Of a DNA stretch of 64,000 bases, positions 10,171 to 63,205 are shown one piece after another (positions within the stretch are counted from its first letter, which is position 1; the number at the start of each line of letters is the position of its first letter). Origin of the DNA: Geosiphon pyriformis uo1 (lineage: Eukaryota; Fungi; Glomeromycota); NCBI GenBank assembly GCA_016748015.1, contig JAAOMT010000381.1:40713-104712 (forward strand). The letters run 5' to 3'. Both the position numbers and the translations under genes were made by a program. A model generated the notes under the pieces. It saw only the letters and a program-made list of their open reading frames with translations. It had not been told where the DNA came from and did no database searches.

Positions 10171-13100
10171 CTAAATTAAAAACATATATACTAATTGTGT
10201 TTTCTAATCAAATCTCATAAAACTTAAAACCAATAATAATTATTAAACATTATTTAAAAGGCATCTAATTTGGTCAATTATATTTGGATTATTACCATTA
10301 ATATTTAAAAAGAAATTAAAACAATCCCAAAAATAGTTAAAAAATCAAAAACATTAAATTATTAAAAAAAAATTTAATTTTTATATATAAAAATAATTTA
10401 TTTTAGTAATTATTTATTATTTATTTTATTTAAATATATCTAAAAATATTATAAATATTTTTTAATTTTAGCTATTACAAAAATATAATTTCTCATTAAA
10501 AATTACTTTTAATAATTCTGAAATATTATATAAAAAAAAATCCAGCTACACAAAAAAATAAGCCAAACACAAATTATTTTAATTCTTATTATAAGAAATA
10601 AAAAAATAATAACATATTAATTAGTAAAATTATAGAAAAATTCCAGTCTCTAAAAAGTACAACACCCAAAAAAAAAAATTTAATTGTCTTCTCTTATTAT
10701 ACACATTTCATAATAGCCACATTATTAGATTTTCAAACAATTTATATTAAAAAAAATAACAAAAAAATTAATAAAACAAAACTTTAGAAGTTCAAAAAAC
10801 TGACTAAAAAAACAACTCTAAATATTGTTTTAGAACAGCATATTAATTCTATATGCTGTTTTAATACTGCTCAAAAGTATTGTTGATAAACAAAATAAAT
10901 ATACTTATTCTTAATAGAATTAGAAGACTTATTAACAATAAATTTTAGAACTTACAAGAACCAAATAGTTTAAACAAGTATACAGATTTTTATATTAAAC
11001 ATCAACATTAAAAAAATGCTTATTGATTTTAATAAAGCTCAATCTTAAGAACAGAATAATATTATCCAATAGAAATTAACAAAAATCAAAAATAATAATA
11101 ATATAATATATTAATTAATTATTAAATAACAGTATAAATAGCACAAATTAACAAATAAAATCAGAAAAAATGATGCGTACACAATAGGATACAAAATATA
11201 CACAAACACATTCAATTTAATATAATTATAAACAAGTAAGCCAAAAAATACTTATAGTCAAATAAAAGATTTAATAGCTTAGTAATTATTTACTAATCAG
11301 TTAAAATATACATAATTATATATAACTCGAAATATGTATATATACAATAGTTTTTTAACTAGAAAAAAGACAGACAAGAAAAAAATAAAAAACCAGAAGT
11401 TAATTAAATAAAATAAAACAAAAAAAAGATGGAAAAACTAGATTATAATTCCAATAAAAGTTAAAAAATATGCTTTTTAAGTTTTGTATTATAATATTTA
11501 CTAATACTAAAATCAATTAAATTAAAGATCTTTTTTTTTATAATTTAGTTTTTTTATAAACAACTAAAAAGACCACTATTTTTTTTTACTATCATCTTTT
11601 TATTAATAAAAACAACAGTAGAAATATCTAATATATTAGCAAAAACATAAACAAAATTTAAGCTTAACAAAATTAAAAACATATTAAAAGGATATTAACT
11701 ACATGAAATTATCTAAAAACAACTTATAATAATATTTTGGCCAAAATTAACAATCAATTTAAAAATCTGAAACAAGCTTTTCATATTTTTGAAAAATAAT
11801 TTTTAATTAAGATTATTTTATGAATACTAATTTTGTTAAATTCTATTTTTTTATGTTAATTTTTTTTGAATTTATTAGAAATAAAGTACTGTTTTACTAT
11901 AAATAAGGAAATACAGATATCTGGTATTAGTGTAAAAAAAAAAGTATCTTTATAAAAGCTTTAAAAAAAACACAATCAGAAGTATAAAAATACAACAGAA
12001 ATTTTTCTTAAAAAAATAGTATAATAGAAGCTATTAACAGCAATTTTGGCAAAACTATTATACTATATACCAAATTTAATAATAAAAACATTCATTAAAA
12101 AAAATTATCCAATATCTATTAAGAAGTTAAGAAAAACTTATTGAACTAACTTTTAAATTTTTAAATAAAAATAATAATAGTAATATATTAAACAAAAATT
12201 CAGCATAAATTAAAAACAATACTAATTAAGACTAATATACTTATCTCTATGTTAAAATTAGATAATTTTTTATATTATTGCTTGATCTAAAAAGCCATAA
12301 AAATTAATTATAGTACAACTACCAAAAAAAAACTCATAATATTATAAAACAATTACTATTTATTTTAACCAATTTTATTAAATTTTTATTAAATTCAAGT
12401 TATAAAATAAGACTATTATACATTAACCAAATTTTAAATCAGTTTAATAAAAGATTAAAAAACAGCATTCTTTAGTTTATTAAATTTTATTATTTCAAAA
12501 ATTTAAAAAATACAATTATACTTACTTATAATTTTGAAATTAATAAAACAAAAACCAAATTATACTTAAGCTGTTAATTTGGCCATAACTAGAATCTTCA
12601 ATATTATTGTAAAATTTATTTAATTAAATAAAAAGTTTTTTGCAAAAAATTGAAGAACATATTAGTCTTTACAGTATTGAAAACTTAACAATAATACAAA
12701 GTACTCAACAATAACAACAATATTAACAGCAACAATAATCTTAAAATCAAAATTCCAAAACTGTTATTATTGTTAGAAATTTGGTCATATTGCAAAAAAT
12801 TATTACAAGAAAATAACAGACCAAAACTGTAAAAACTAATATTAACAACAATTAAAATATTTACAATTATTAAAATATTTACAATTATTAAAATATTATT
12901 ATTTTATTTCTTAGTACTATTACAGGTTGGAGTAACAAATTAATGAATAACAAGAGAAAACATGATTATAGAATGATAAAAAAAATCAAAAAGAATTTAA
13001 CTTCAAAGAGCAAATTAAATAAATATGAATTTAATATGTAAGATCAGTTTTATAAAATATCTTAGTCACTATACTTTTCAAAAAATAACTGGAAAATTTG

Positions 13101-13610: not shown

Positions 13611-14267
13611 CTAATAAAAAGTATGAGTTTTAACTATAATATTATCTTTTTCAAAAAGATTAAGCTTTGGCAAAATTAAGCTATTTATAAAATAATCTAT
13701 TTAAAGGGTTTTGTCTAATTCAAAGCTAACTAGTTTATTGAAATTTTTGGTAAATAAAGTATATAATATTTGAAGCAAAATGAGTTTTATATTCAAAAGA
13801 CCAAATCTTTGTATTAGAGTTTAGGTTCTTATAACAATAGTTAAAACTCTTGAAACATCTAATTATATAATGCCCAAAATTTCTGTCTGTATCTTTGAAG
13901 TTGTTTTTTTTATTAGTTTTATGTCCTTTATGATTTCACCAAGGTGATCATAGAGTTTTAATTGTTTTTTATATGACAAGTTTTTGTTTATAAGCAAAAT
14001 TTCTTGGAATGTATTTTCAATTGTGTTAAAAAGTAGGAATATAGCTGCTATTATACTTTTCAACAAATATTTATCTATTTTGTTACCAATTTTTTTTCTT
14101 CTGGTAGTGGTTTTTTTGAGTCTAATAACAGTATATGTTTTATTGTTATTAGTTATAGTGATCTGTTTTCTAATAATCAGAGTAGTATTTGAATAGTTTT
14201 TGATCTAATATTTATGGAGAGTATAGAAGACATTTTAAATGTTTTAATCCAGAAAATAATTATTCAT
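13611..14267 (-). pseudogene. ORF3 (accessory ORF downstream of integrase) of the lineage B element
   Basis: ATG at 14267. Includes ORF 13863-14066 (KQLKLYDHLGEIIKDIK). Homologous to 56599-57255. Confidence 0.7.
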
Positions 14268-23909: not shown

Positions 23910-24525
23910 GTAATTATTTTTATCATAATTATTTCTCAAAATATTTAACAAATATTCCAAAAATTAATGTTAGTCTTGAAAACATTTTCTGACTTATCAA
24001 TAATGATTAATAGAAGTCAAATTAATTATATCCAAAAAAAACCACAACACTAGTAGTAAATAATTCTCAAAATTATTATTCTTATAGAAGAAAAACAAGA
24101 AGACACTCTGGAAATTAATTATTAAAACTTTTAAAGCAAGCATTAAAAGAAAATTTTTTATTGGAAAAACACTTTATGAATGAAAACTAAAATTTACAAC
24201 AACAAATCTCACTTCTAAAACTATACAAAAACAAATTCACAATGAATTCAAAACAGCAGCTAGACCAACAAACATTTGCTACAAACTTAGAGCAGCATTT
24301 AGACTCTATAATTTATTCAATACTTGTGAAAACGTCTTACAAAATCTAATACTTCATCCAATAAAGATTCAATACATTGGAAAGTTCACAGAACTGAAAT
24401 TTCAACAATTTTCAGACCAGATTACTTCAATTATCTTAGACCACTATTTTAATATTACAGATAGTGCTTGGACTTTGAAAAAGCTCAGTCTTGAGAAGAA
24501 AATTATGTTATCAGTAAAATTTTAG
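23910..24525 (+). pseudogene. ORF3 (accessory ORF downstream of integrase) of the lineage D element
   Basis: The frame starting at 24121 reads IKRKFFIGKTLYE*KLKF...QIHNEFK...YKLRAAFRLYNLFNTCENVL...IQYIGKFTELKFQQF and is open from 24184 to 24525, running into the LTR. Start approximate. Confidence 0.7.
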
Positions 24526-33450: not shown

Positions 33451-36400
33451 ATTAATAAAAAGAGTTAATATATTTATTATATAGCAAAAAAAATTATAGA
33501 CCAAAAAAAAAATTATTTTTATAAGTCATAATGTTTTTATTCTATTATATTACAAATATTTGCTAAAAATATCATGAAAAATTAAGAATCAATTACAAAT
33601 TTTTGAAATAGAATCCAAAAAATACCAAAATAAAACTATTACTATTATTAGCTTATATTTATTAGCCAAAAATTACAAAAATATAAGATTTTAATTTTTA
33701 ATATTTTAAAAATTATGTAAAAATACTAGTAAATACTATTATTAAAATATTTAAATCCAGAAATTAAGGACCAATTAACAACTAATGTGCCAAATTTCAA
33801 TTAATTATGTAAATATATTAAATTTATCTTACAAATTTGGGTTCAAAAAATAAATATTATGTGTTTTAGCCAAAACAATTAAAATAAATAAACTTAAAAA
33901 ATCTAAATTAAATATAAAAAATATAATTTTAAGTATTTCTTAAACAATATATTAATGTTTTTACAAGTGAAAATGAATTTGAAAAAATAAATATAATTAA
34001 GCATAAAATAAATATAAAAGATACAATACTAATTAAACAAAGAACATACAAAATACCACTAGTCAGTCATAATATTATTAAAAAAAAATTAATTGGATAT
34101 TAAATAGTAGATTAATTTATTATTTATAAGTTTATAATTATTACCAATAGTATTAATACAAAAAAAAATGGCAAAATCCAGTTTTGTATAGACTATCAGA
34201 AGTTTAATAATATTATTTATAGTGATAACTATCTAACTTTATAAATTCAAAATTTTTTTGATTTATTCAAAGAAAAAAAATAGTATTTTATATTAGATTT
34301 AAATAATAGTATTATAAATAATTATTTAGAATATTGAAACAAATAACAAACCTGTAACTTAGCACTCAATAATTAATAATATTGTAAATAGTTTTTGAAA
34401 ATTTTTGAATCTAAAGATTTTAATTAAGTTGTTTATATAATAAACAGAAATTTTTTTGGTAGTTGTTTTCTCAATTTTTTTTTTAGCATAAAGACTAGTT
34501 TGATCTGACAGTTATAAGTTTTTATTTTTGTTTTACAGATTTTTTACCAGATTATTTTTAATATTAATATTTAGTACTTGATTTTTTAATTAATTAGTAT
34601 ACAACACAAAAAAATAAAATAAAATAAAAATAAAAATAAAAAAATAAGAAAAGAAATAAAAAGTTAGTATCTTATTAATAACTATAATCATAAGTTATTG
34701 GTTTAATATAATTAAGTAGTCAATATTAATAACATGAATTGCTAATAAAATTGAAAAATAACAATTTTAACCCAATAAAAAAAATAACATAAATTGAATA
34801 ATAATATAATAATTTTATTTGATATTTAAATGATTTTACTTTAAAATATAAAAAACTATCTTTAAAAAGAGATATATATTATGAATATTTATTGTTAATT
34901 AACTAAAAACTTGTCTAAGTCTGAATGTAAATATTTTGAATCTGAATATATAGAATTAAGTGAAAAAATAGAATACTTTTTTTATTTTTAATATTACTGC
35001 TATATATATATAATTCTTATTATATAAAATTTTATATATTTCTACTTTTTTTTAAACTACTTTTTAGAACTGTGTTTATTTCTAAGCAATATGTTATGAT
35101 TTTCTAAAAATATGTATATTTCTAAAAATATGTTTATATATTAAGTTCTATTTTTCTATTAATCTATTTTTCTGATCTGTTTTTTTTATTTTTTTGTACT
35201 CTTTTTTTATGCATAATATTATTTTCTCTTTTAATATTAAGCATTATTAAAATTCTTATTTTGAATTAACTTTATTTTTTTTTTCTAATATTGTGTATTT
35301 AATTCTAATTCTTAGATTTTTTAATTAAGAATTGGTTATTTTTTCTTATTGATTAACTATTATTGTTTTCATTTTTGAATATAGTAGTATTTCTAGATAA
35401 TTTTAAAATATGGCATATAATTAAAAAATTGTTTTAATATATAGTATTAAACTTGTTTTTTTTCTAATTAAGTTTTCAATTTGTTGTACTATTTGTTAAT
35501 TAAATGTTTTTTTAAATTTATTTATGTACAACTCCTAAATATTTAATTTTTATCTTAGTCAATAATAATAATATGCTCTTAAAAGTTGTTTTATCTATAA
35601 TTTTTAATTTTTTTAGTCAATTTTTCTGTTAAAATAATACTTGGTATTTTTTTAAAAGTGTTCTTTACTTTTTTTATAATCTTATCTAATTAGTAATTTG
35701 GTTGTTTCTGTAGTTATTAATATAAATTGTTCCTTGTTTTTTTTTTTGCTTGTGTTTTTATAACAAATTATTTGGTAATTAATAGTTATTTTTATGTTTA
35801 AATGTTGTTAATTTGTTATTTAAAATAATTATTGTGCTAATGTATAAATATGATCTGAAATTTCTATCTTTTTTGATTGCTTTTATTACATGTACTAATT
35901 TTTTATATACTAATTTTATAGCTTAAATTAACATGTTTGCTTTAATAACTATGATTAGTTTCAAATTTCATGAAATTTTATTTGGTTTAATTAGTATTTA
36001 TTATACTTTCAGTTGTAGAAATTATTGATAAAAAATAATACTATATTGTGATATAATTTCAATTAATTATTATGTACTGCTTTGACTAAAATTTTGTTGT
36101 TCTATTTTAACTTCTATGTTTTATTTTCCAGAATTTTTTTAATATGAAATAGACTGTTCTATTTGAAATTAAATTTTCTATTTTATTGTTTTTCTGCTTT
36201 GGTATAATATAAAAGTACTTTGTTTCTAATATTAAATTCAATTAGTTTGTTTAATAATTTGTTGTTATTGTTGTTTTTGTTTTTTTTGTAATTTTTAGAT
36301 ATTATTAGCTGCTTTTTTTGATTTTTTAGTATTTTTATTAAGTAATAAGTTTTTTATAACAGTATCTTTTAAACATTAACTTTTATTATTGGTTCTGTTA

Positions 36401-49300: not shown

Positions 49301-52300
49301 AATCATAAAAAATTAATATTACTAACCAAAAAAAAATTAGTTAATAATAGAATTATTAAATAGAAAACTGTACTTTTATTTTTTAAATATAAAATACATT
49401 ATAAAAAAAAAATAGAAATATTAATAGCTTGTTATGAATAAAACAACTATAAGCAAAAAAACCAACAAAATTTAAACAATCTTAAGAATAATAAAAAAAC
49501 AAGAAAGAAAAACAATATTATTTAATATATATTTAGACTCAATAGCAGAATATTTTAATTAAGAATTAATACTAAAAAAAGCTAAGCAGTTATACTATTA
49601 ATTAATATATTTAAACATAAAAAATATAAACAAAGTTATAATATTTGTCAAAGAAAAAAAATAATAAAATCAAGCAAACTATTAAGACCAATTAAAATTA
49701 AACAACTATTTAATAAGATTAAAATCAACTTAATAAAATATTATCAATAACAATTAAAAACAACTAAAATATTGTTGTTATTATAAATTATTTTATCAAA
49801 TAATTAGAAACTAGAATTATATAAAAAGCTAATGCAGAATTAATAGTTAAATTTGTTTATTAAAACTTAAAATATTAATATAAATGTCCAAAAAAACTAT
49901 TATTAAATCAAGAAACTTATTTTGTAAACAGAATATTGACAGAATTAAGCCAAAGATTTAGAGTTAAAAAACTATTGCTATTATTATATTATTTACAGAC
50001 AAATGACTTAATTAAAAAACTTAATAAAAAACTATATAAAACACTAACCAAAATTAGTTAAAAAAACCAAGAAAAATAAAACATATTTATATTATCAATA
50101 CTATTTGTTTATTAGATAATAAAGCAAAATACTGTTTAAATAATACTATTTGAACTAATATATAACAGAAAAAAATATTGCCAATAGAAAAAAAAATTGT
50201 AATATATCTAACAAAACCAATAACAAAAAACATATTTTGGACAATATTGTTAAAACAAACATATAACTTAATAAAAATCTTAAAAAACAAAAGAAAAATA
50301 GCAGCTTACTGTATTAAAAAGTTACAAAAAAAACAAAAAAAAAGACATAATAATTAATTGTTAAACAAATTAGCTAAATTCAAAATTAAGAACAAAATAC
50401 TTTTATATTGTTATGGTTAAAACTTATACTTCTTATTAATTATCACATGTATTAGCCACTAATGTCATATAAATTAGCCATTCTATTTTTAGATAGTAAT
50501 CATTGACTTAGTTATTGACTTGATTATTGACCACTTTTGACACCTATATAAGCAATAAATTTCTTAACTGTAGAAAAGCATGTTCAAAATAATCAAAAAT
50601 AAATAAAATAACAACTTTCATTTCAATTATTCTTTTATTGTTAATTTCCCTTTTCCTACCTTCAAATATTCAAACATCTTGGGATAAAAAATTACTTGTT
50701 GGTTAATTCTTACCCTTTTCCTGAAACGTATAAGTATAGCATTTGAAGATTATTAAATAAAACATGACTAAAGAGCACATTTGATACTTAATATTGAATT
50801 CTAAGAGCACCAACATGAAGCATAGAATTATACTAAGTGTAATCATTTATTAATAGTACAAACTATCTTTCTATCTTCAGATTCCCCAGTTATCTTTGAA
50901 AAGAATAGTAACTGAGATATTTTATAAAACTAATCTCACACATTGAATTTATACTTATTTAATTTGCTCTTTGAAGTTGAATTTTCTTTGATTATTTCCA
51001 TTACTCTACAATCCTGTTTTCCCTTGCTATTTGTTAACTTGTTACTTCAACCCATAACATAAAAGTAGTGTTTCTTGTAAGGTTGTCAAAATTCACCTTG
51101 TTTCTTATTGTATGGGTGATTATTTATACCTGCTACAATCAAAAGAATACTTTAAAGCACACAACAAAAACAATCTAGACTTTATTGAACTCAATCCTTT
51201 GCCCTCTTGCTTGATTTGCTTCTCTATTGAAGATCAATCTAGTAAACAATTCCAAGATTTTTGGAACTGGTTCCTGAATGAGCATTCAGCTAAAACTTAC
51301 ACAGCCTATACAACTTATTACTTTGATCAAGCTTATTTTGAAGACAATTTTAAAAAAAAAAACAACAGCATCAATCAACTTTTATACTCTACAACTTTTG
51401 AACAACAGCTTCCTGATTCCGAATATCTAAATCATCAAATCCACATTTGGATTGCTGCCCATTAAGCAATTGAAACTCTTTTTAAAACAGAAAAAAAAAG
51501 CTACCAAACTGCCTCTGTTTTTGACCTTTTATCAAGTAAATTAGACTCATTTACACAAACAGTTATCCCTGAACCAATGGCTAATGACCCCATGCAAGCA
51601 AACATTTTGGCCACCCTCCAAGGTATACAAACTGCTCTAGAAAGAAGAAACAATACTTTACTACTACTATTTAGAGGTGATACACAAGATCCAATTGAAT
51701 GGTTGGATGATTTTGAGAGAGCTACTACAGCCAACTAATATGATGAAAAATACAAGTTCCAAATTGTTGGTGGCTATTTCCAAGACTTTTCTGCTATCTG
51801 GTTCTCACAAAAAACAGATGCCAATGCTTAACACCAAATAATTAGATGAACACCAACCAATGCTAGAGAAGAAAATACCTCTTTTACTACTTGGTTTAAG
51901 ACCAAGTTAAGAATTCCAATATTAATATCCAAATGGCATATGGAATTGGAAAAAAGAACCCAAGGTCCTGAAAAAGTAGTGACTGAATATGCCAAAGCTA
52001 TCAGAAAGCTAATCAAATATATAGACTCTGGGAGAAACTGGACAGAAAAGCAAAAGATTTATTCCTTCATAAAAGGATTAAGAACTGATCATATGCTTTT
52101 TGGCCTCTCTTGGCTTTAAAAGACAACTTAACAATAGACATAGCTATTGAACTGGCACAAAGAATTGAAGATAACCAAAGAATGTATTTGGGATTCACAC
52201 TTCCAGTTTTTGCTTCTGCTCTTGCCATGGCTCTAGCTCCATAAATGGCTGCTGTCTCTTTTGCTGCCCAAACTCAAAACCCAAATGAATAGTTAATAGA

Positions 52301-52645
52301 TAGACTCATAGCTAATCTTGTCCAGTTACTAGAACCCTTAGCCCAAGCTGTCAGAGAAAATCAACAACCCTAAAAACCCAAATTTGAACCCTGTTTTAAT
52401 CAACTCCAGCAACTTCTATATCAAAGACAACAAAATTGTGGCCCATCTGTGTGTTACCACTGTGGATTAACTGAATATTTCTCCAGAGATTGTAACAATC
52501 TTCTCTTGCCTCCTCTAGCTCCTAAAAACAATAACAATCAAAACAACAAAACCATCAACAACAATGTCCCCAATCAAAAACCCAATCATGCTAACATCAA
52601 TTTTTTTGGAGAGAATCCCTTAGTTGAAGCCACTGTTTATCAATC

Positions 52646-52690
52646 TTTAAACTGATAAGCTCCAAAGGGTGAAAGTGCAAGCCAACCAGA
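52646..52690 (+). promoter_or_regulatory. Putative -1 programmed ribosomal frameshift signal at the gag/pol junction (T TTA AAC then stop, plus downstream stem-loop)
   Basis: In-phase TTTAAAC immediately precedes the gag stop in both lineage B copies (52646-52652; minus copy 28128-28134). In the minus copy the -1 frame reads through into pol. Confidence 0.7.
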
Positions 52691-55600
52691 AGAAAACTTC
52701 TTTTACATTTTTAACCTAACAGATAATGACCATGATATAGATAAACTGACAATTAACACCTCTGACTTAACAAGAAAGAAAAAGAAAGCCAAGGTTGATT
52801 TCATTCTAAATTCCAACAAAGTCTCAACTTCTACTGCTGACAACAATAAGCTACCAAAGACTAAAGTTTTTAAAAATCCTCCAAAGTTGGAATCTCCAGA
52901 AATAGTACAAAAATCTGGCCTCTATTCTGTTGTCAAAGATCTCATGGAAATCCCAGCACACATTACATTTGGCCAACTAATAACCCATCTACAGTTCAGA
53001 AAAAATCTTTACAAGTTCTTAATACCAAAGAAAAAAACACCAAAAACCAACAAGCACTCTTGTTAAGCTGGACTTGCTAACAACAGCAATGTCACCTCTC
53101 TGATTTGTAAAGTCCAAGTGGCTGGCTACTTCATTGATTTGATCTTAGACGATAAATTATCTGTCAGTGTAATTGCCAAACACTTTCTGGAAGTCATTGG
53201 AAGAAAAATTAATGAACCTTTTACCCAGTCTATGACCAATGTACATAGTAACAAAAAGAAAGATCTAGGTATAGCCAAAGCTGTTTCTGTTTGCATCAAT
53301 AGTATTAGCATTAAAACAGATATGGAAGTATCTAAAGCAAAAAAATATACCATCATTGTTGGTAATGAATGGCTTAAGAAAGCCAAAGCACTACTTAACT
53401 ATGAACTGTATAAACTGATGTGGTAAAAAACCCATTGTGGTTAAATGCTGTCATTAGACAACTCCTCTAGCAACCAAACAGAACTAAGAAGAAGAACAAT
53501 CAAATGAATCAGATAATGATGAGAGTGATGATAAAGATCAAAAAGAACCAAAAGAAACTGCTGAACTTGCCTATACTATCTTCACCAGCAATAACAAGCC
53601 ACTGGACAATGTTAAAGTTAACAAAAAAAAATCATGGTAAATGGCAAGCTAATCTGCTGGCCCTATTATGATATCCTTAGAAGAACTTTTAATAAAAAAC
53701 CTAGCAAGAAAGCCAAATACAGTTATTAGTGACATGGCCTTTGTGCATGATACTGGTATAATAAATCTTTGTATTTACCAAGTAATGAATGCAAATTCTG
53801 CCTGATCTATTACAAAGATTGGGAATCAATTAGCTTGATACCTCAAGAAGAACTTAAAGAAGTACAAAAGTCTTTTGAGAATAAACTACCTAAAATTCAA
53901 TTACTAGTTATAGAACAAAGAGAACCTTCTCTTAAAGAAAAAAAGTGGATATTGAAAATCTGTTAGCCAGAAATAGTTCAGTTATCTTAAAAAAAAGTGA
54001 TACCCCTAGACAAACCCATGTGATACAACACACCATTACTACAAAAAAATTCATCCCATCCATTTGAAGCCTTATCAATCCAATCAATGTAATGATAAGT
54101 TTATCAAGAAAGAAATAAACCAGATGAAAGATCTTGGATTCATACAAAAAACCAAGAGTAAATGGGCTTTTCCAGTTGTAGTGGTATTTAAGAAAGATAG
54201 AACTCTACACTTCTGTGTTGACTACTGCCAATTAAATGCCATCACTGTAAGAGACATGTACTCATTTCCCAAAATTGATGCAATGCTAGATAAATTCAAT
54301 AGTGCTGCTTTCTTTTCAATTATTGATTTAACTGCTGGATTTTGGCAAGTAGAAATAGATCCAGAAAGCAAAAAGAAAACTGCTTTCATCACCAAGTATG
54401 GCACCTATAAATTCACAGTTATGTCTTTTGGTCTCACCAATACTCCTCTCATCTTTTAATGCCTAATGGATAAAGTGTTTGAATTAGTAAAAAAAAACTT
54501 TGTTCTGGTTTACTTGGATGACATAATGGTATATTCAAAAACCTGGGATGAACACCTTGAACATTTACAAAAGATTTTTGACCTGCTCAAAAATGCTGGC
54601 CTCAAGATCAACTTAATTAAATCTTTTTTTGGATGCCAATTCACCCAATTTCTTGGTCATCTTATTACAAAAAATAGAATCTTCCCTAATCCAACTAAAA
54701 TTGAAAAAGTTCAGAACATTAAACAACCAATAAATGTTCTTGAACTATGCTTTTTTCTTGGTTTGGCCTTTTACTATCACAAATTTATCAAGGATTTCTC
54801 CAAAATTGCTTTTTCTCTCAATCAGCTACTCAGAAAAAATGTCAATTATTACTGGGGCACTCATCAACAAAAAGCTTTTGAAATTCTAAAAAAAAAACTT
54901 GTTACTGAACTAATCTTCAAACAACCTGATTTGGACCAATTTTTTATCCTCCACACTAATGTATCTGGCTATGGACTTGGTGCTGTCCTTTCACAAAAAG
55001 ATGAAAATAGCAGAAAACATGCCATAGCATATGTCAGTAGATCTCTTACACCAGCAGAAAAAAACTATTCAGTTACTAAACAAAAATGTTTAGCAGTAGT
55101 TTAGATTATTAACTACTGGGATTAATATCTTCTTGGTGCAAAATTCTTGATAACAGATCATCAAGCCTTGGTTTGGCTGTGCAATAAAAAGAAGCTGGAA
55201 CATAAATGAATAACTTGCTAGATACTCCTTCATAAAACATAATAATAGACTTGGACAACTACTCTGCCTTAATGGAATTTTTGGGTAAAGGACAATACTC
55301 ACTAGAATACACTCAACAGTAAAGAGAACATTTGTGCAAACAATCAAATTTCTATTTGATCTGCCAAAACCAATTATATAAAAGAAACAGAAAAGATTTT
55401 AACCACTCCCAAAAAGTCATCAGATTTAAAGAAAGAGAAATTGTAATATATAACATGCACACTGACCCATTAGCTGAACACTTTGAAAAAACAAAAACAA
55501 TTCAGAAAACTTTAGCTTGCTACTATTGGTCTACCTTGGAAAAAGACATTGCTAAATACATTAAAATCTGTGACATCTGTCAGAGAAGAAGCAAACTCAA

Positions 55601-56598
55601 TTGCAAAAAAAATATCCATTCAATCTCTATTGATCAACCATTTAACAAAATTAGTATAGATGTTGTTAAACTTTTAACAATAACTCCTAATGGTAACAGA
55701 TATATTATCACAGCTACCGACTATCTTACAAAGTGAGTAGAAGCAAGAGCCACTCCAGACCAAATAGCAGTCTCAATAGCCAACTTCATTTATGAAGATA
55801 TTATTTGCCATTATGGCTGCCCCAAAGAACTTTTATCTGATAAAAAAAAAGCTTTTCTTAGTACACTGGTTGAAAAACTTTGCAGAAAAATGGGAATACA
55901 TTACAAACTTTCTTCTTTTTATCATCCCCAAACAAATGGTCTAGTAAAACGTTTTAATAGAACATTATGTAAAACTTTAGCCAAAACCAGTGAAGAAACA
56001 AACTTATAGGACAAAGTACTGCCTTTAGCTTTATTTGCTTATAGAACTGTGAATCATGACATAACAAGTTATGAACCTTTTTATCTGCTCTATGGGTGCA
56101 TGACAACACTATCAATAGAAACTAACATTGAAACAATATTCTTTGAAGAGATCACAATAGGAAATTACAAAGACATTTTGCAAAGAAGACTTAATACCAT
56201 TTTTAACTCCTTGATAGAAGCATGAATAATTGCTTTTGAAAAGATAAAATAGTTTCAAGAAAAGCTTAAGAAAAAGAAAACCTATAAAACATTTTCTTTA
56301 AGTGTTGGTAACTTGGTATTAAAATATTGTTAGACAGAAACAATGTCTATGGTAATAAATTCTCTAGCTGGTAGAAAAGACTTTTTATAGTCAACAAAGT
56401 TTTGAACAATGGTTCTTATATTCTTCAAAATCAATCTGGAACAATCTTCAATGATTGTTCTGTTTATGATACACAACTCAAGAAATATCATAAATGATCT
56501 GATTGGTTGTCTGTTGTGGTAATACCAACTCAATTGATTAGCAAAAATCAAGTATAAATAAATACACCATTCCCAAAACAGAGGTATCTTCAATCAAC

Positions 56599-57255
56599 AT
56601 AAACAATTATTTTTTGGATCAAAACATTCAAAATGCCTTCTATATTCTTTATAAGTATAGGATCAAAAACTATCTAAATGCTATTTTGACCATTGGAAAA
56701 CAGATTACTATAATTAATAGCAGTAGAATACATACTGTTATCAGACCAAAAAAAACTATTACCAGAAAAAAAAAAATTGGTAGCAAAATGGATAAATATC
56801 TATTGGAAAATATAATAGCAGTTATATTCTTATCTTCCAGCATAATTGAAAAAACACTCCAAAAAATCTTATCTATAGACAAAAACTTGTCATATAAAAG
56901 ACAATTAGAACTCTATGGTTGTCTTGGTAAAATCATAGAAGATATGAAACTCATGAAGAAAACAACTTTAGAGATACAGGCAGAAATTTTGGGCATTATA
57001 TAGTTAGATGTTCCAAGAGTTTTAACTATTGCTAAAAGAGCCAAAACTTTAATACAAAGATTTGGTTTCTTGAATACAAAATTCATTTTGTCTCAAGTAT
57101 TATATACCTTATCCACAAAAGACTTCAACAAACTAGTTAGCTTTGAGTTAGATAAAACTTTTCAAATACATTATCCCATGAATAGCTTGATTTTGCTGGA
57201 GCTCAATCTCTTTGGAAAGAATAATGTTATGATTGAAACTTATACTTCTTATTAA
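56599..57255 (+). pseudogene. ORF3 (~218 codons, accessory protein of unknown function) of the lineage B element
   Basis: ORFs 56614-57003 and 57070-57255 are in the same frame, separated by one stop codon. The start ATA at 56599 is ATG in the sister copy (14267). Confidence 0.75.
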
Positions 57256-57314
57256 TTATCACATGTATTAGTCATTGATGTCATATAAATTAGCCACTCT
57301 ATTTTTAAATAGTA

Positions 57315-57395
57315 ATCATTGACCTGATCAATAACCTGATCATTGACCTGACCATTAATCTGATCATTAACCTAGTTATTGACCTGATCATTCAC
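57315..57395 (+). repeat. 12-bp tandem repeat (ATTGACCTGATC) in lineage B LTRs
   Basis: About 6-7 units here. Also at ~50498-50532 (~3 units), ~13436-13555 (~10 units, reverse) and ~30261-30335 (~6 units, reverse). Confidence 0.85.
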
Positions 57396-59639
57396 CACTT
57401 TTAACAGCTATATAAGTGATGAATCTCTTAGCTGTAAAAAAGCATGTTCAAAATAATCAAGAATAAATAAAATAACAACTTTCATCTCAATCATTCTCTT
57501 ATCACTAATTTTCCTTTTTCTATCTTCAAGTATCTAAACATCTTGGGATAAAAAATTACTTGTTGGTTAATTCTTACCCTTTTCTTAAAATGTATAAGTG
57601 TAGTATTTGAAGATTATTGAATAAAACGTGACTAAAAAGCACATTCGATACTTGATATTAAATTCTAAGAGTGCCAACATGAGGCATAGAATTATACTAA
57701 GTGTGATCATTTGTTAACAGTATAAACTATCTTTTTATCTTCAAATTCCCTAGTTACTTTTTGAAAAGAATAGCAATTGAGATATTTTATAAAACTAATC
57801 TTACACATTGAATCCATACTTATTCAATTTGTTCTTTAAAGTTGAATTCTCTTTGATTATTTCCATTACTCTACAATCCTGTTCTTCCTTGCTATCTGTT
57901 AGCTTATTACTTCAACCCATAACAATATTATACAAAAACAGAAAAAAAATAGAATAAAAAATTTGATCCAAAATAGGATAAGTTATTTTATATTAAAAAA
58001 ATATTTAAAAAATATATTATATAAACTGCAACTAAAAAACAAAATTTTAACCAAAGTAGTACATAGAAATTAACTAAAGTTATATTATAGTAAAACATTA
58101 ATAAACTTTAATATATTACAGTTAAAAGCACAAAAGATACTAATTAAACCAAATAAAATTTTACAAAATTTAAAACCAGTTGTTATTATTAAAGCCAACA
58201 TATTACAAAACTGAAAATTGTTATAAATATAATTAAAACACACAAAAAAAAAGCAATAAATAAAAATAATAAATAAAATACATACAACAGCGCAATAGTT
58301 ATTTTAAATATTAAAAACAAAAAATTTAAACATAAAAATAACAGTTAACAAACAAAAAATTTGTTATAAAAACATTTAAAAAACAAAACAATTAAAAAAA
58401 CTTTATATAGTAAAATACAAAAACAAAAAAATAATTATATTAAAAAACTTATTAAAAAAGTAAAAAAAACTTTTAAAAATTTAATAATAAATGTTCAATA
58501 AAAAGTATTAATAAAAAAAAACTAAAAAACTTGGAAAAAACAATTTTTAATAGTATATTGCTATTATTACTTAAAACAATAGCTAAATATTTAGATATTA
58601 TATATTAATAACTTTAAACAAATGTTTAATAAACAAATAATACAACAAATAGAATATTTTATTAGAAAAACAACTTAATAACCTATGTAAAAACAATTTA
58701 TAAATACAAAAAAATATTATTATACTTAGTTATAAAAAATATAATAGTAAATTAAATGAAAAAAATAATTAATTTACAATTTAAAAAACTAAAAACAAAA
58801 GTTTTCAAAACTATAATAGAAAAAAACTTAGAAAATTTTAACAGAATTTAATATTAAAAAAAAATATTATTATTTATAGAAAATAATAATAATAATATAA
58901 ATAATTAATAATAAAGTAAAAGATTATTAGAATACATAATACTAGGAATTTTAGGAATATCAAAAAAAATTTTAAAAATTTTAGAAATACAAAAAATTTT
59001 AGCAAAAACTCAAAGAAATAGTAAAAATTTCAGAAATTTTGTATTATAAATATTTATATATATATATTAATTAATAAGTCAAGAAAAAAAAGAAACAAAA
59101 CTTTAAAATTAGTTTAGTTATTTTTAATTTTATTAATAAGTTTTTATTATATTTATTACTTAAATAATTCCAAGATTATTAAAGTTAAAACTAATATTAT
59201 AATTATATTGATATTATTTAAATCAATTATAATTACTTAAACAAAACTAAAACAATAATTTTTAATTATTGCTATTAACAAAATACTAATTAATTACTAT
59301 ATTATTTTGTAATTATATTTATCAAAGTTATTAATTAATTGTAAAAAATACTAAAATTATAATATTAAGAATTATTTAATAAAAAATACCAGAAAAAAAT
59401 ATAATTGTAATTAAAAAACTAAGATTATTTACCAAAAAAGTGTAAATACCAGAATAAATTAGTTACTAAACTAAAAAAATTATCAAAGTTATTATTAATT
59501 ACTATTAAGTAAATTTCTGTTTATTTTATAAAAAACTTTAATATATAATCTTCATAATACTTTTAAAATACACTTCAATTAATCTGAACACCAAATTATG
59601 AAAATTACTAATATTTACTCAAAAAATCTACTCATAATA

Positions 59640-61527: not shown

Positions 61528-62650
61528 TTATTTAATGAAAGGGATCCAAACACCAACCCGTTGCCGATACCGCACATAATCATCACCAAAAAATTTGATC
61601 AGTAATGGTTCCTCATTTCTGATTCGATCTCTGAAGAATCGATGCAAGGCCACCAAATAACCAAAGAAGCAAATGGGATTAAAAAGTAACAACTGTGTTC
61701 CTAATGCCCAATAATAAAACCCAAAATAAGAAGGATGTCTTGAGATACTATATATTCCAGTTGTCACCAGTTCGTGATCTTGATGTTTTTGATACACAAT
61801 TTGATGTGAGAAATTTGATTTTGCATGCCACATTGCCAGACTTCTGGTTGTCTGGCCAAGTATTATTAAGACTAAACCTAGATATTGAAATTAGACCGGA
61901 GAAATGATTTCATAAAGTCATCAATTAAATTATGCTAAAAACCTTACCTAGAAAAGCTATCCATCCAACCTTTTTTAATTCAGGAAACAAGTAAAGCTCA
62001 ATTACAAACTCAATCAATCCAGCCAAATGCGCAACGTGATAGGAAAGACCATTATGTATAAGAAATGCTGGAAATTATTTGTTACATGATCAAATTCGGA
62101 AGAAAGCATAAATCAATAGAGAATACCAAGATTGATGAGATTTTAAGGGCCAGTTCGTGCCCCAGTTTACCCAAAAGTTCAAATAACACTCAAGAGCTGT
62201 GTCACAATTTCACTTTTCCTAATCAGACGAACTTTACTCACCATCCATTGAAAGCTTCTCCGAATTAACTATGGCTGTTAATAGATACTCCAAGATGTGG
62301 AAGACCGCCAAAGTCGCAAAGAAAACTCCTAGTTGAGGTATTTGGGAATATAGTGCGAAACTAATACCGGCGCCGAAAATTACGCCAATCAAGAATGAGT
62401 AAATGGCAATGTTTTTTGGCGTATGATGTCTGTCTAGTAATGGGATATCACGATATAAACGCGAGTATTGACGTGTAGTATAAAATTCTTCAGAAGGGGA
62501 ATGAGTTGTGGCTGGGCTTGGAGATCTTAGACGGAAAGATGTAGAGTTAGATGGTTGTTCTTCTGGAGTTGATCCGCTGTATGTGGTTGTAAAGTTGGTT
62601 AGAATGTGTTCTGTGCCTGGTAAGGAGTCTGCAATGAACGTTGAAGACAT
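61528..62650 (-). CDS. STE14: Protein-S-isoprenylcysteine O-methyltransferase, 3 exons (62650-62242, 62067-61948, 61877-61528), 292 aa
   Basis: ICMT motifs FHILEYL.TA, NFSH.I....HELVTTGIYSISRHPSYFGFYYWALGTQLLLFNP and RI..EE..LIKFFGDDY..YR.RV...IPFI. GT-AG introns of 174 and 70 bp give an open 879-nt frame. Confidence 0.95.
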
Positions 62651-63205
62651 TTTGTTTTATTCAAGCTTTGAAAAGAAAAGCTATGTGAGGTAGCTGTATA
62701 AATAGCGATGAGTTAAATTTCATTAAAAAAGAGAACTGTTTAAATGAACAAAGGAAAAGAAAACAATAACTTTCAAGACTTTTTAATATTGTATTTGGTT
62801 AAATTTATTTTGACTATTGTTCCTTTTTTAGACTTAAGATCTACATAGAATATTAGGTTATACCAAGTCTATCTGATTCAAATTAAAGAACACAACCATT
62901 GTTAATCATTATGTCAAATCGCGTTTAGTGATAGTCTTTCTTTTAATTTTCGAAGCCGCGGGCCATTCTACTTGAGTTACCAACTTACACTCTTTACAAG
63001 TTTACAACCTACCCGAGTTAACAAGTCTGAGTTAGAAATTCTTAAAAATAAACCCCTCGCATCAGGCTATCGAACTCAACATTTACTTGATTATTACATC
63101 TTTGACATTTGTGATCAAGAATTTTTTCCCAAAATATTAGATAAGGTACTTCATTTATTACTTATTTTGTAAGAATCCTTTAGTGTCCCGGGAAGATTAT
63201 ATCAA
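62651..63205. promoter_or_regulatory. Divergent intergenic/promoter region between STE14 and the BTB gene
   Basis: 555 bp between two head-to-head ATGs. CpG is retained. TATAAA at ~62697. Function is inferred from position only. Confidence 0.45.

What the first reader, a model, noticed from the sequence alone, without database searches (positions are those of the whole stretch)
56599..57255. Conserved non-Env third ORF between integrase and 3' LTR, shared by several divergent Gypsy lineages
Seen: every element with an intact 3' end carries a separate ORF of about 200 codons after the pol stop, ending at the PPT/LTR (56599-57255, 14267-13611, ~23910-24525, ~35850-35230, ~10450-11050, ~58270-58860). 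Lineages with dissimilar LTRs share a motif: D 'KFFIGKTL...YKLRAAFRLYNLFNTCENVL...IQYIGKFTELKF'; C 'AYYYY*LR*KL...IKTIF*LYAIF*NYLEIL...VNQ'; 10.8 kb 'KYCFRTAY*FYMLF*YCSKVLL...LNRIRRLINNKF'; B (more distant) 'LELYGCLGKII...LTIAKRAKTLIQRF...VLYTLSTKDF'. The product looks basic and helical, with no signal peptide or TM segment. Established: this position holds env in errantiviruses and retroviruses, and canonical fungal Ty3/Gypsy elements have only gag-pol. The integrases here end in GPY/F with no recognisable chromodomain. Inference: a lineage-wide accessory nucleic-acid-binding protein, for example an anti-silencing factor (analogous to plant VANC proteins), a transactivator binding LTR tandem repeats, or an integration tether driving nesting into heterochromatin.
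Basis: partly seen in the sequence, partly recalled or inferred. Interest (0 to 1): 0.85.

Follow-up and report, generated by a model that had tools for sequence, protein, structure and literature searches.

The report
Extra gene in fungal Gypsy retrotransposons
Several distantly related jumping-gene families in what is likely the fungus Geosiphon carry a separate third gene after the integrase, encoding a soluble helical protein with no clear match in the databases searched, which likely helps the element switch itself on in a genome that silences it.

Summary
The third ORF is real. At 56599-57255 it has 1 stop in 218 codons against about 19 expected. That stop sits on a codon that is Arg, Gln, Trp, Cys or His in annotated Geosiphon pyriformis copies, which fits CpG decay; 20 of 120 hits are full length. 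Lineages D, C and E share one protein family by profile, and F joins by DNA identity to C. An unnamed metagenome contig has the same layout with an intact 230-aa gene, 316 nt after the integrase stop and running through the PPT into the LTR, so it is not an integrase tail. The B-family protein at the given coordinates is only marginally linked to that family. The family is not Env and not generally basic (pI 5.4-9.7). It has no Pfam match at cut-off. A confident model (pLDDT 81) has no structural neighbour above Z 4.1, with a weak ParB-type helix-turn-helix resemblance. Best guess (0.4): a separately expressed LTR-binding activator or anti-silencing protein; function untested. Extra ORFs at this position are a known class; this family was not found in print. 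An earlier scan note on another genome read a similar ORF as an integrase tail.

The parts
56599..57255 (+). ORF3 of element B1, 218 codons; start decayed to ATA, one stop; last codons run through the PPT into the 3' LTR
57001..57003 (+). TAG at a hypermutable codon (R/Q/W/C/H in annotated copies)
50409..51059 (+). B1 5' LTR (TGT...ACA), preceded by ATAT
51060..55200 (+). B1 decayed gag, protease, RT, RNase H
55260..56557 (+). B1 integrase (H2C2, core, C-terminal part), ending in TAA 41 nt before ORF3 and in a different frame
57214..57224 (+). polypurine tract inside ORF3, preceded by the GAGCTCA(A/G)TCT motif also seen in D and L001
57225..57924 (+). B1 3' LTR, followed by ATAT (4-bp target duplication)
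57315..57396 (+). 12-bp tandem array (about 7 copies) just upstream of a TATA-like box at about 57409; candidate binding site (inferred)
13611..14267 (-). ORF3 of element B2, ATG kept, 6 stops
23931..24525 (+). ORF3 of element D, two frameshifts and one stop in the core; intact 221-239 aa copies annotated elsewhere
35214..35867 (-). ORF3 remnant of element C, full-length profile match in one frame
10433..11050 (+). ORF3 remnant of element E (profile match to 10963; PPT-like junction near 11045)
58270..58860 (+). ORF3 remnant of element F, assigned by 73% DNA identity to C

Best explanation
These Ty3/Gypsy elements carry a separate third gene between integrase and the 3' LTR that encodes a soluble protein of about 220 aa, predicted to be mostly helical, which is likely made from its own short transcript and likely binds the element's LTR to activate it or shield it from methylation silencing. 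Shown: the gene, its position, its independence from integrase and its conservation across D, C, E, F and an outside contig. Predicted: a small helix plus beta-hairpin N-terminal part, a basic Pro-Tyr linker and a helical core. Inferred: expression from an internal promoter or a spliced RNA, nuclear entry through the basic linker, DNA binding through helices ~129-163, and co-evolution with lineage-specific LTR repeats. The B protein is probably a fast-diverged member (about 0.65), not proven.
For: Frame openness far beyond chance. Intact full-length annotated copies: 20 of 120 B hits and 52 of 120 D hits. Independent contig L001 has the same order with an intact ORF3. ORF3 diverges faster than integrase: 11-37% identity between lineages against 36-48%. 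Model pLDDT 81.5. Three ParB-family DNA-binding domains are among the top 26 of 48,161 chains: Spo0J Z 3.9/rmsd 5.5/96 aligned, ParB Z 3.7/2.9/59, KorB Z 3.4/4.6/92. A weak DUF1016_N hit covers the same core in 4 of 33 D members, best E 0.005. In L001, TTGCCCT occurs twice in the spacer before ORF3 and three times in the LTR, never in 2.8 kb of coding DNA; spacer and LTR share 21 GC-rich 6-mers against 6.6 expected (1 of 500 controls). LTRs carry lineage-specific short repeats. B1 is stripped of CpG (o/e 0.04; host-gene region 0.83), and TEs of the related R. irregularis are CG-methylated (10.1101/2021.03.30.436303, passages). Precedents: foamy virus Tas acts on LTR and internal promoter (PMC8670036, PMC4929722, abstract starts), VANC binds tandem repeats (PMC5735166, abstract), Tor elements use an internal promoter for their third ORF (PMC4402516, passages).
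Against: No structural match reaches Z 5; the ParB rows are tied with unrelated helical proteins (top row CHD1 C-terminal domain, Z 4.1) and lie below the tool's noise level. Foldseek found nothing at E<=0.001 in PDB or BFVD. The DUF1016_N link failed a profile-profile test: probability <=1%, within shuffled and reversed controls, 73 sequences. The proteins are not uniformly basic. The spacer-LTR motif sharing was noticed post hoc and holds in 1 of 5 elements tested; B1 has only a 41-nt gap and shows none (p 0.95). LTR repeats are common and can bind host factors (own knowledge). B homology is unproven.
Confidence: 0.4

Rival explanations
1. ORF3 acts after transcription: an RNA- or ribosome-binding factor that promotes reinitiation on a polycistronic genomic RNA (so that the stand-alone integrase is made), exports the RNA or suppresses RNAi, like caulimovirus P6/TAV.
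For: In L001 the RNase H frame stops and integrase starts at its own ATG, so reinitiation or a second RNA is needed; two earlier scan notes report this in the window's genome. CaMV TAV activates reinitiation and suppresses silencing (PMC5734791, abstract start). The Atlas feature search lists a translation-repressor cluster (PF01818) and a closterovirus coat-protein cluster for both B and D at 0.89-0.91.
Against: No Cauli_VI or RNA-binding Pfam family was listed for any protein scanned. The Atlas rows share only 117-139 of 256 features, the range of chance or distant hits.
Confidence: 0.22
2. ORF3 is an integrase cofactor or chromatin tether that replaces a chromodomain and steers insertion into methylated repeats.
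For: It is adjacent to an integrase with no chromodomain hit in the stretch scanned. The elements are nested.
Against: Known targeting domains are fused to integrase (own knowledge), whereas this gene is separated by stops and by up to 316 nt. No chromatin-reader family or fold stood out.
Confidence: 0.15
3. The position is a cargo slot filled twice: the B protein is unrelated to the D/C/E/F family, so 'one lineage-wide ORF3' is two genes. This is independent of the function question.
For: No significant profile-profile match, local or global; identity 11-22%; no B protein recognised among the 35 hits of the D profile over 1.84 billion representatives.
Against: Same position, strand and length. 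Collinear N-terminal alignment (profile 4-119 to B 7-119). Score above shuffles with one of two profiles. Same order of the first eight predicted elements, helix-strand-strand then five helices, although the B model is poor (pLDDT 42). Same frame across the PPT motif. B and D queries list shared Atlas clusters.
Confidence: 0.35
4. It is a C-terminal extension of integrase reached by frameshift, readthrough or splicing, not a separate gene.
For: 43 of 289 automatic gene models join an integrase C-terminal motif to ORF3 (my motif count). In B the open frame begins just before the integrase stop.
Against: In L001 a 316-nt spacer separates the integrase stop from the ORF3 ATG, with no open frame of 60 codons bridging it. 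Many annotated copies begin at a fixed Met. The fused models vary in junction and look like annotation introns across decayed DNA (inference).
Confidence: 0.08
5. It is an Env-like or cell-to-cell movement protein.
For: It sits at the env position in sense orientation (PMC7264820, parts 1-2).
Against: No hydrophobic segment (max hydropathy 1.37), 0-3 Cys, no Env family in Pfam, soluble helical model.
Confidence: 0.02

Closest known systems
[quoted passage not shown]
   Same: Position, presence in most copies of a family, unknown function; Grande's product is nuclear and has its own promoter.
   Different: Sense orientation yet no TM segment; overlaps the PPT and LTR start; no Pfam family in common found; mycorrhizal-type fungal host.
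Foamy virus Tas (PMC8670036, PMC4929722; search listing and abstract starts only)
   Same: Works-like model: a 3' accessory gene whose product would bind both the LTR and an internal promoter; L001 shares a motif between spacer and LTR.
   Different: No sequence or structure link found; no env gene here; transactivation untested.
VANC anti-silencing proteins of Arabidopsis VANDAL transposons (PMC5735166, abstract)
   Same: Fast-diverging element-encoded protein, element-specific tandem repeats, methylating host.
   Different: VANDALs are DNA transposons; no shared domain detected; demethylation untested.
ParB/Spo0J/KorB helix-turn-helix DNA-binding domains and DUF1016 N-terminal domain
   Same: Weak resemblance over the helical core (Z 3.4-3.9; Pfam E 0.005).
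   Different: Scores within noise; the profile-profile test with DUF1016_N was negative; no ParB catalytic domain hit.
Caulimovirus P6/TAV (PMC5734791, abstract start)
   Same: Separate gene downstream of the RT gene (position recalled) in a reverse-transcribing element whose RNA appears polycistronic.
   Different: No Cauli_VI domain; ORF3 is less than half the size (size recalled).

Membership tests
Ty3/Gypsy LTR retrotransposon (host element) | LTRs with TG...CA, PPT, order protease-RT-RNase H-integrase | tested here: met
Conserved sense additional ORF between pol and 3' LTR | separate ORF, same strand, present across copies and lineages | tested here: met
Env / Env-like ORF | transmembrane segment and hydrophobic signal peptide | tested here: not met
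   max 19-residue hydropathy 0.44-1.37 in 8 representatives; no dedicated signal-peptide predictor was run
Env / Env-like ORF | spliced or subgenomic mRNA | not testable with these tools
   no RNA run was listed
Chromodomain | Pfam chromodomain match | tested here: not met
   none listed
ParB/Spo0J/KorB HTH domain | structural match clearly above unrelated helical proteins | tested here: inconclusive
   Z 3.9, 3.7, 3.4, tied with unrelated rows
DUF1016 N-terminal domain (PF17761) | score at Pfam cut-off or significant profile-profile match | tested here: not met
   15.8 bits against cut-off 32.8; hhalign <=1%, within controls
VANC-type anti-silencing factor | sequence-specific binding to element repeats with loss of methylation | not testable with these tools
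   needs ChIP, EMSA and methylome
Foamy-virus-type transactivator | internal promoter sharing response elements with the LTR | tested here: inconclusive
   motif sharing in 1 of 5 elements, post hoc
Caulimovirus P6/TAV | Cauli_VI / RNase H1-like RNA-binding domain | tested here: not met
   not listed
D/C/E/F ORF3 family (membership of B) | significant profile similarity | tested here: inconclusive

The most novel reading that the evidence does not exclude
Mycorrhizal-type fungi host 'complex' retrotransposons: one ancient accessory gene with an undescribed fold, driven by an internal promoter, whose product binds its own lineage's LTR repeats and lifts CpG silencing. This would be a fungal counterpart of foamy virus Tas and plant VANC, and could explain how LTR elements came to fill about 41% of the Geosiphon genome.
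Probability: 0.25. Interest if true: 0.85.

Novelty: new variant of a known kind. Interest (0 to 1): 0.58.

Why it matters
Accessory genes of LTR retrotransposons are a recognised open question, and almost all examples are from plants and animals. Here a real, old, fast-evolving one with a confident model and no database neighbour sits in the elements that likely dominate the G. pyriformis genome (41.2% LTR; PMC11952901, passage). Intact natural copies exist, so its function can be tested directly. A sequence-specific anti-silencing or activating protein would be a new actor in fungal host-transposon conflict and a possible epigenome tool. Practically, hundreds of annotated 'hypothetical proteins' of G. 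pyriformis are retrotransposon ORF3 copies rather than host orphan genes.

Tried and rejected
No whole genome is held, so there are no genome-wide copy counts or DNA-level dN/dS between lineages. No RNA holder was listed; that is no evidence on expression. pN/pS between B1 and B2 is uninformative: differences by codon position are 43/35/41, 111 of 119 are transitions, and integrase behaves alike. The AlphaFold model of B from 20 near-identical copies was poor (pLDDT 42) and its Foldseek search is meaningless. Foldseek on the good model gave no E<=0.001 in PDB or BFVD; the VIA second look gave a best Z of 4.1. No capsid, Env or chromodomain fold was listed, which does not exclude them; the N-terminal 75 residues were barely tested and not folded alone. 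PDB sequence searches gave 0 hits for B and one designed protein at E 0.08. PHROGs best E 0.0012, unknown function; NCBIfam best FtsQ E 0.0004, taken as chance. The tblastn hit in Klebsiella phage Pone (E 0.4) lies antisense to its genes and was dropped. Plasmids and viral contigs gave nothing. The metagenome scan with P0266 found no relative among 412 pattern matches, so P0266's link to an integrase rests only on its PPT-type C-terminus. The DUF1016_N link failed the profile test (73 of 80 loci used, 5 dropped as partial and 2 as too short). An antisense gene was rejected: antisense frames hold 12-26 stops in B1, B2 and L001. The homodimer prediction was never run because the queue was full, so oligomeric state is open. 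Literature searches listed no paper describing this ORF. The G. pyriformis genome paper (recalled) was not in the listings, Repbase was not searchable, and only 1 supplementary file of PMC2864245 was held (no hits), so a prior description there cannot be excluded.

Full report
Setting. The window is an AT-rich stack of nested, decayed LTR elements. Element B1 spans 50409-57924, with TG...CA LTRs, an ATAT target duplication and the order protease-RT-RNase H-integrase, so it is Ty3/Gypsy. All 240 listed homologues of the B and D third ORFs are named Geosiphon pyriformis hypothetical proteins at about 50-84% identity. The host is therefore likely G. pyriformis or a close relative; no genome was held. 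CpG observed/expected is 0.04 in B1 against 0.83 in the host-gene region at 61-64 kb.

The ORF is real. 56599-57255 holds 1 stop in 218 codons (null mean 18.6; 0 of 1000 resamples as low; other frames 12-22), as open as B1's integrase and RT frames; B2 holds 6. The search with B found 125 hits among 596 candidates; of the 120 listed, 20 are 218-aa proteins with the same start and end. The shared stop at 57001/13865 falls on a residue that is R, Q, W, C, H or Y in annotated copies, as expected for a CG-containing Arg codon under methylation-driven decay (inference). The D query found 158 hits among 167 candidates; 52 of the 120 listed are full-length 221-239 aa proteins. Intact annotated copies show that the active ancestor had the gene, not that it is used today. 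pN/pS between the two dead B copies (0.76) equals that of integrase (0.78) and says nothing about selection.

It is shared between lineages, with one gap. A D profile run over 1.84 billion representatives gave 35 hits. I looked up the six most distant: four G. pyriformis proteins of two further lineages and two unnamed metagenome proteins. Profiles that include them find window elements C (iE 2e-11, 3e-17) and E (1e-9, 1e-7) at the expected places, and nothing else better than 0.14. F is 73% identical to C over 497 nt. B is the exception. hhalign gives 0.2-0.5% and global mode is no better than shuffles. The HMM score beats shuffles with profile A3 (mean 8.8 bits; 1.7% of 600 and 1.3% of 597 controls reach it) but not with A4 (28-32%). 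For homology speak the collinear N-terminal alignment, the same predicted element order (B model poor), the same frame over the PPT motif and shared Atlas clusters. I put B's membership at about 0.65. The Atlas also lists two unnamed Mucoromycota clusters at 0.94 and 0.93 for the D core, a lead that the family is wider than sequence search shows.

It is a separate gene. Contig L001 reads RT-RNase H, stop, integrase with its own ATG (one internal TGA), stop, a 316-nt AT-rich spacer, an intact 230-aa ORF3, then PPT and LTR, with the ORF running into the LTR start. Its integrase is 37-47% identical to the window's, and it has far fewer stops than the window copies; I take it to come from another host (inference). 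In B1 the gap is 41 nt and the frame differs. 43 of 289 automatic gene models fuse the integrase end to ORF3; I read these as annotation artefacts. The conserved C-terminal peptide overlaps the PPT motif and one lineage reads it in another frame, so that part is probably DNA-level constraint.

What the protein looks like. Lineages are 11-37% identical, their integrases 36-48%. pI runs from 5.4 to 9.7, there is no hydrophobic segment and there are 0-3 Cys, so it is not Env and not uniformly basic. AlphaFold2 on P0266 with 29 sequences gave pLDDT 81.5 and pTM 0.65: helix, beta-hairpin, linker, then a helical core. No Pfam family reaches its cut-off on ORF3 itself. Against 48,161 chains no match reaches Z 5. 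Spo0J, ParB and KorB DNA-binding domains appear at ranks 2, 9 and 26 (Z 3.9, 3.7, 3.4), tied with unrelated helical proteins; Foldseek is blank at E<=0.001. A weak DUF1016_N hit gives an ungapped 66-72 column alignment but fails against controls. These are hints of a helix-turn-helix-like core, not a family assignment.

How it likely works. I favour (0.4) a separately expressed nuclear protein that binds the element's own LTR and activates it or counters CpG silencing. The grounds are the weak DNA-binding-fold hints, fast divergence alongside lineage-specific LTR repeats, a methylating host group (10.1101/2021.03.30.436303, passages), and a motif shared by the L001 spacer and LTR (TTGCCCT twice and three times, none in coding DNA; 1 of 500 controls; but 1 of 5 elements and post hoc). 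Every functional step is inferred. Rivals: a TAV-like post-transcriptional helper for the stand-alone integrase (0.22), an integration tether (0.15), an integrase extension (0.08), Env-like (0.02); the remainder is something not guessed.

Known context. Extra ORFs between pol and the 3' LTR are described in plants and in fungal Boty, with unknown function (PMC7264820, parts 1-2 of 3), in bdelloid rotifers (PMC5408684, listing only), and as 'add. ORF' in a figure legend of a fungal Gypsy survey (PMC2864245, passages; I could not see which element). A survey of fungal LTR elements describes two ORFs as usual (PMC3248453, passages). Tor elements drive their third ORF from an internal promoter (PMC4402516, passages). 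VANC was read as an abstract; Tas and TAV as listings with abstract starts. G. pyriformis is 41.2% LTR (PMC11952901, passages). Seven searches listed no description of this family; unseen supplements and Repbase may hold one.

Verdict. The lineage-wide claim is shown for D, C, E, F and an outside contig but not for B, and the function is untested. New variant of a known kind; interest 0.58.

Noticed in passing
L001:772-804: RNase H frame ends in a stop and integrase starts at its own ATG; this matches earlier notes on a stand-alone integrase in the window's genome.
   Followed up: partly
window 51058-51800 (+): A 135-codon open stretch directly after the B1 5' LTR continues in frame, past one stop, into what looks like the capsid region: either a long Gag N-terminal extension or an upstream ORF; no Pfam hit.
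   Followed up: no
window 55150-55260 (+): B1 RNase H seems to lack the C-terminal residues seen in L001 just before the integrase start; deletion in this copy or a family trait is not resolved.
   Followed up: no
protein P0199: A gene model joins a dUTPase domain (PF00692) to a D-family ORF3, suggesting that some of these elements carry dUTPase.
   Followed up: no
window 50405-50408 and 57925-57928: 4-bp ATAT target duplication, compatible with a decayed CpG-centred site.
   Followed up: partly
window 61528-62656 (-): Host isoprenylcysteine carboxyl methyltransferase gene (PF04140, E 3e-28) with near-normal CpG content next to the repeat stack.
   Followed up: no
L001:2140-2455: Spacer shares several short motifs with the start and middle of the LTR, and has a TATA-like stretch about 120 nt before the ORF3 ATG; may be an internal promoter or an LTR-derived remnant.
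   Followed up: partly
G. pyriformis gene models: At least 280 annotated 'hypothetical protein' clusters are retrotransposon ORF3 copies or chimeras of neighbouring elements (for example P0126, P0294).
   Followed up: partly
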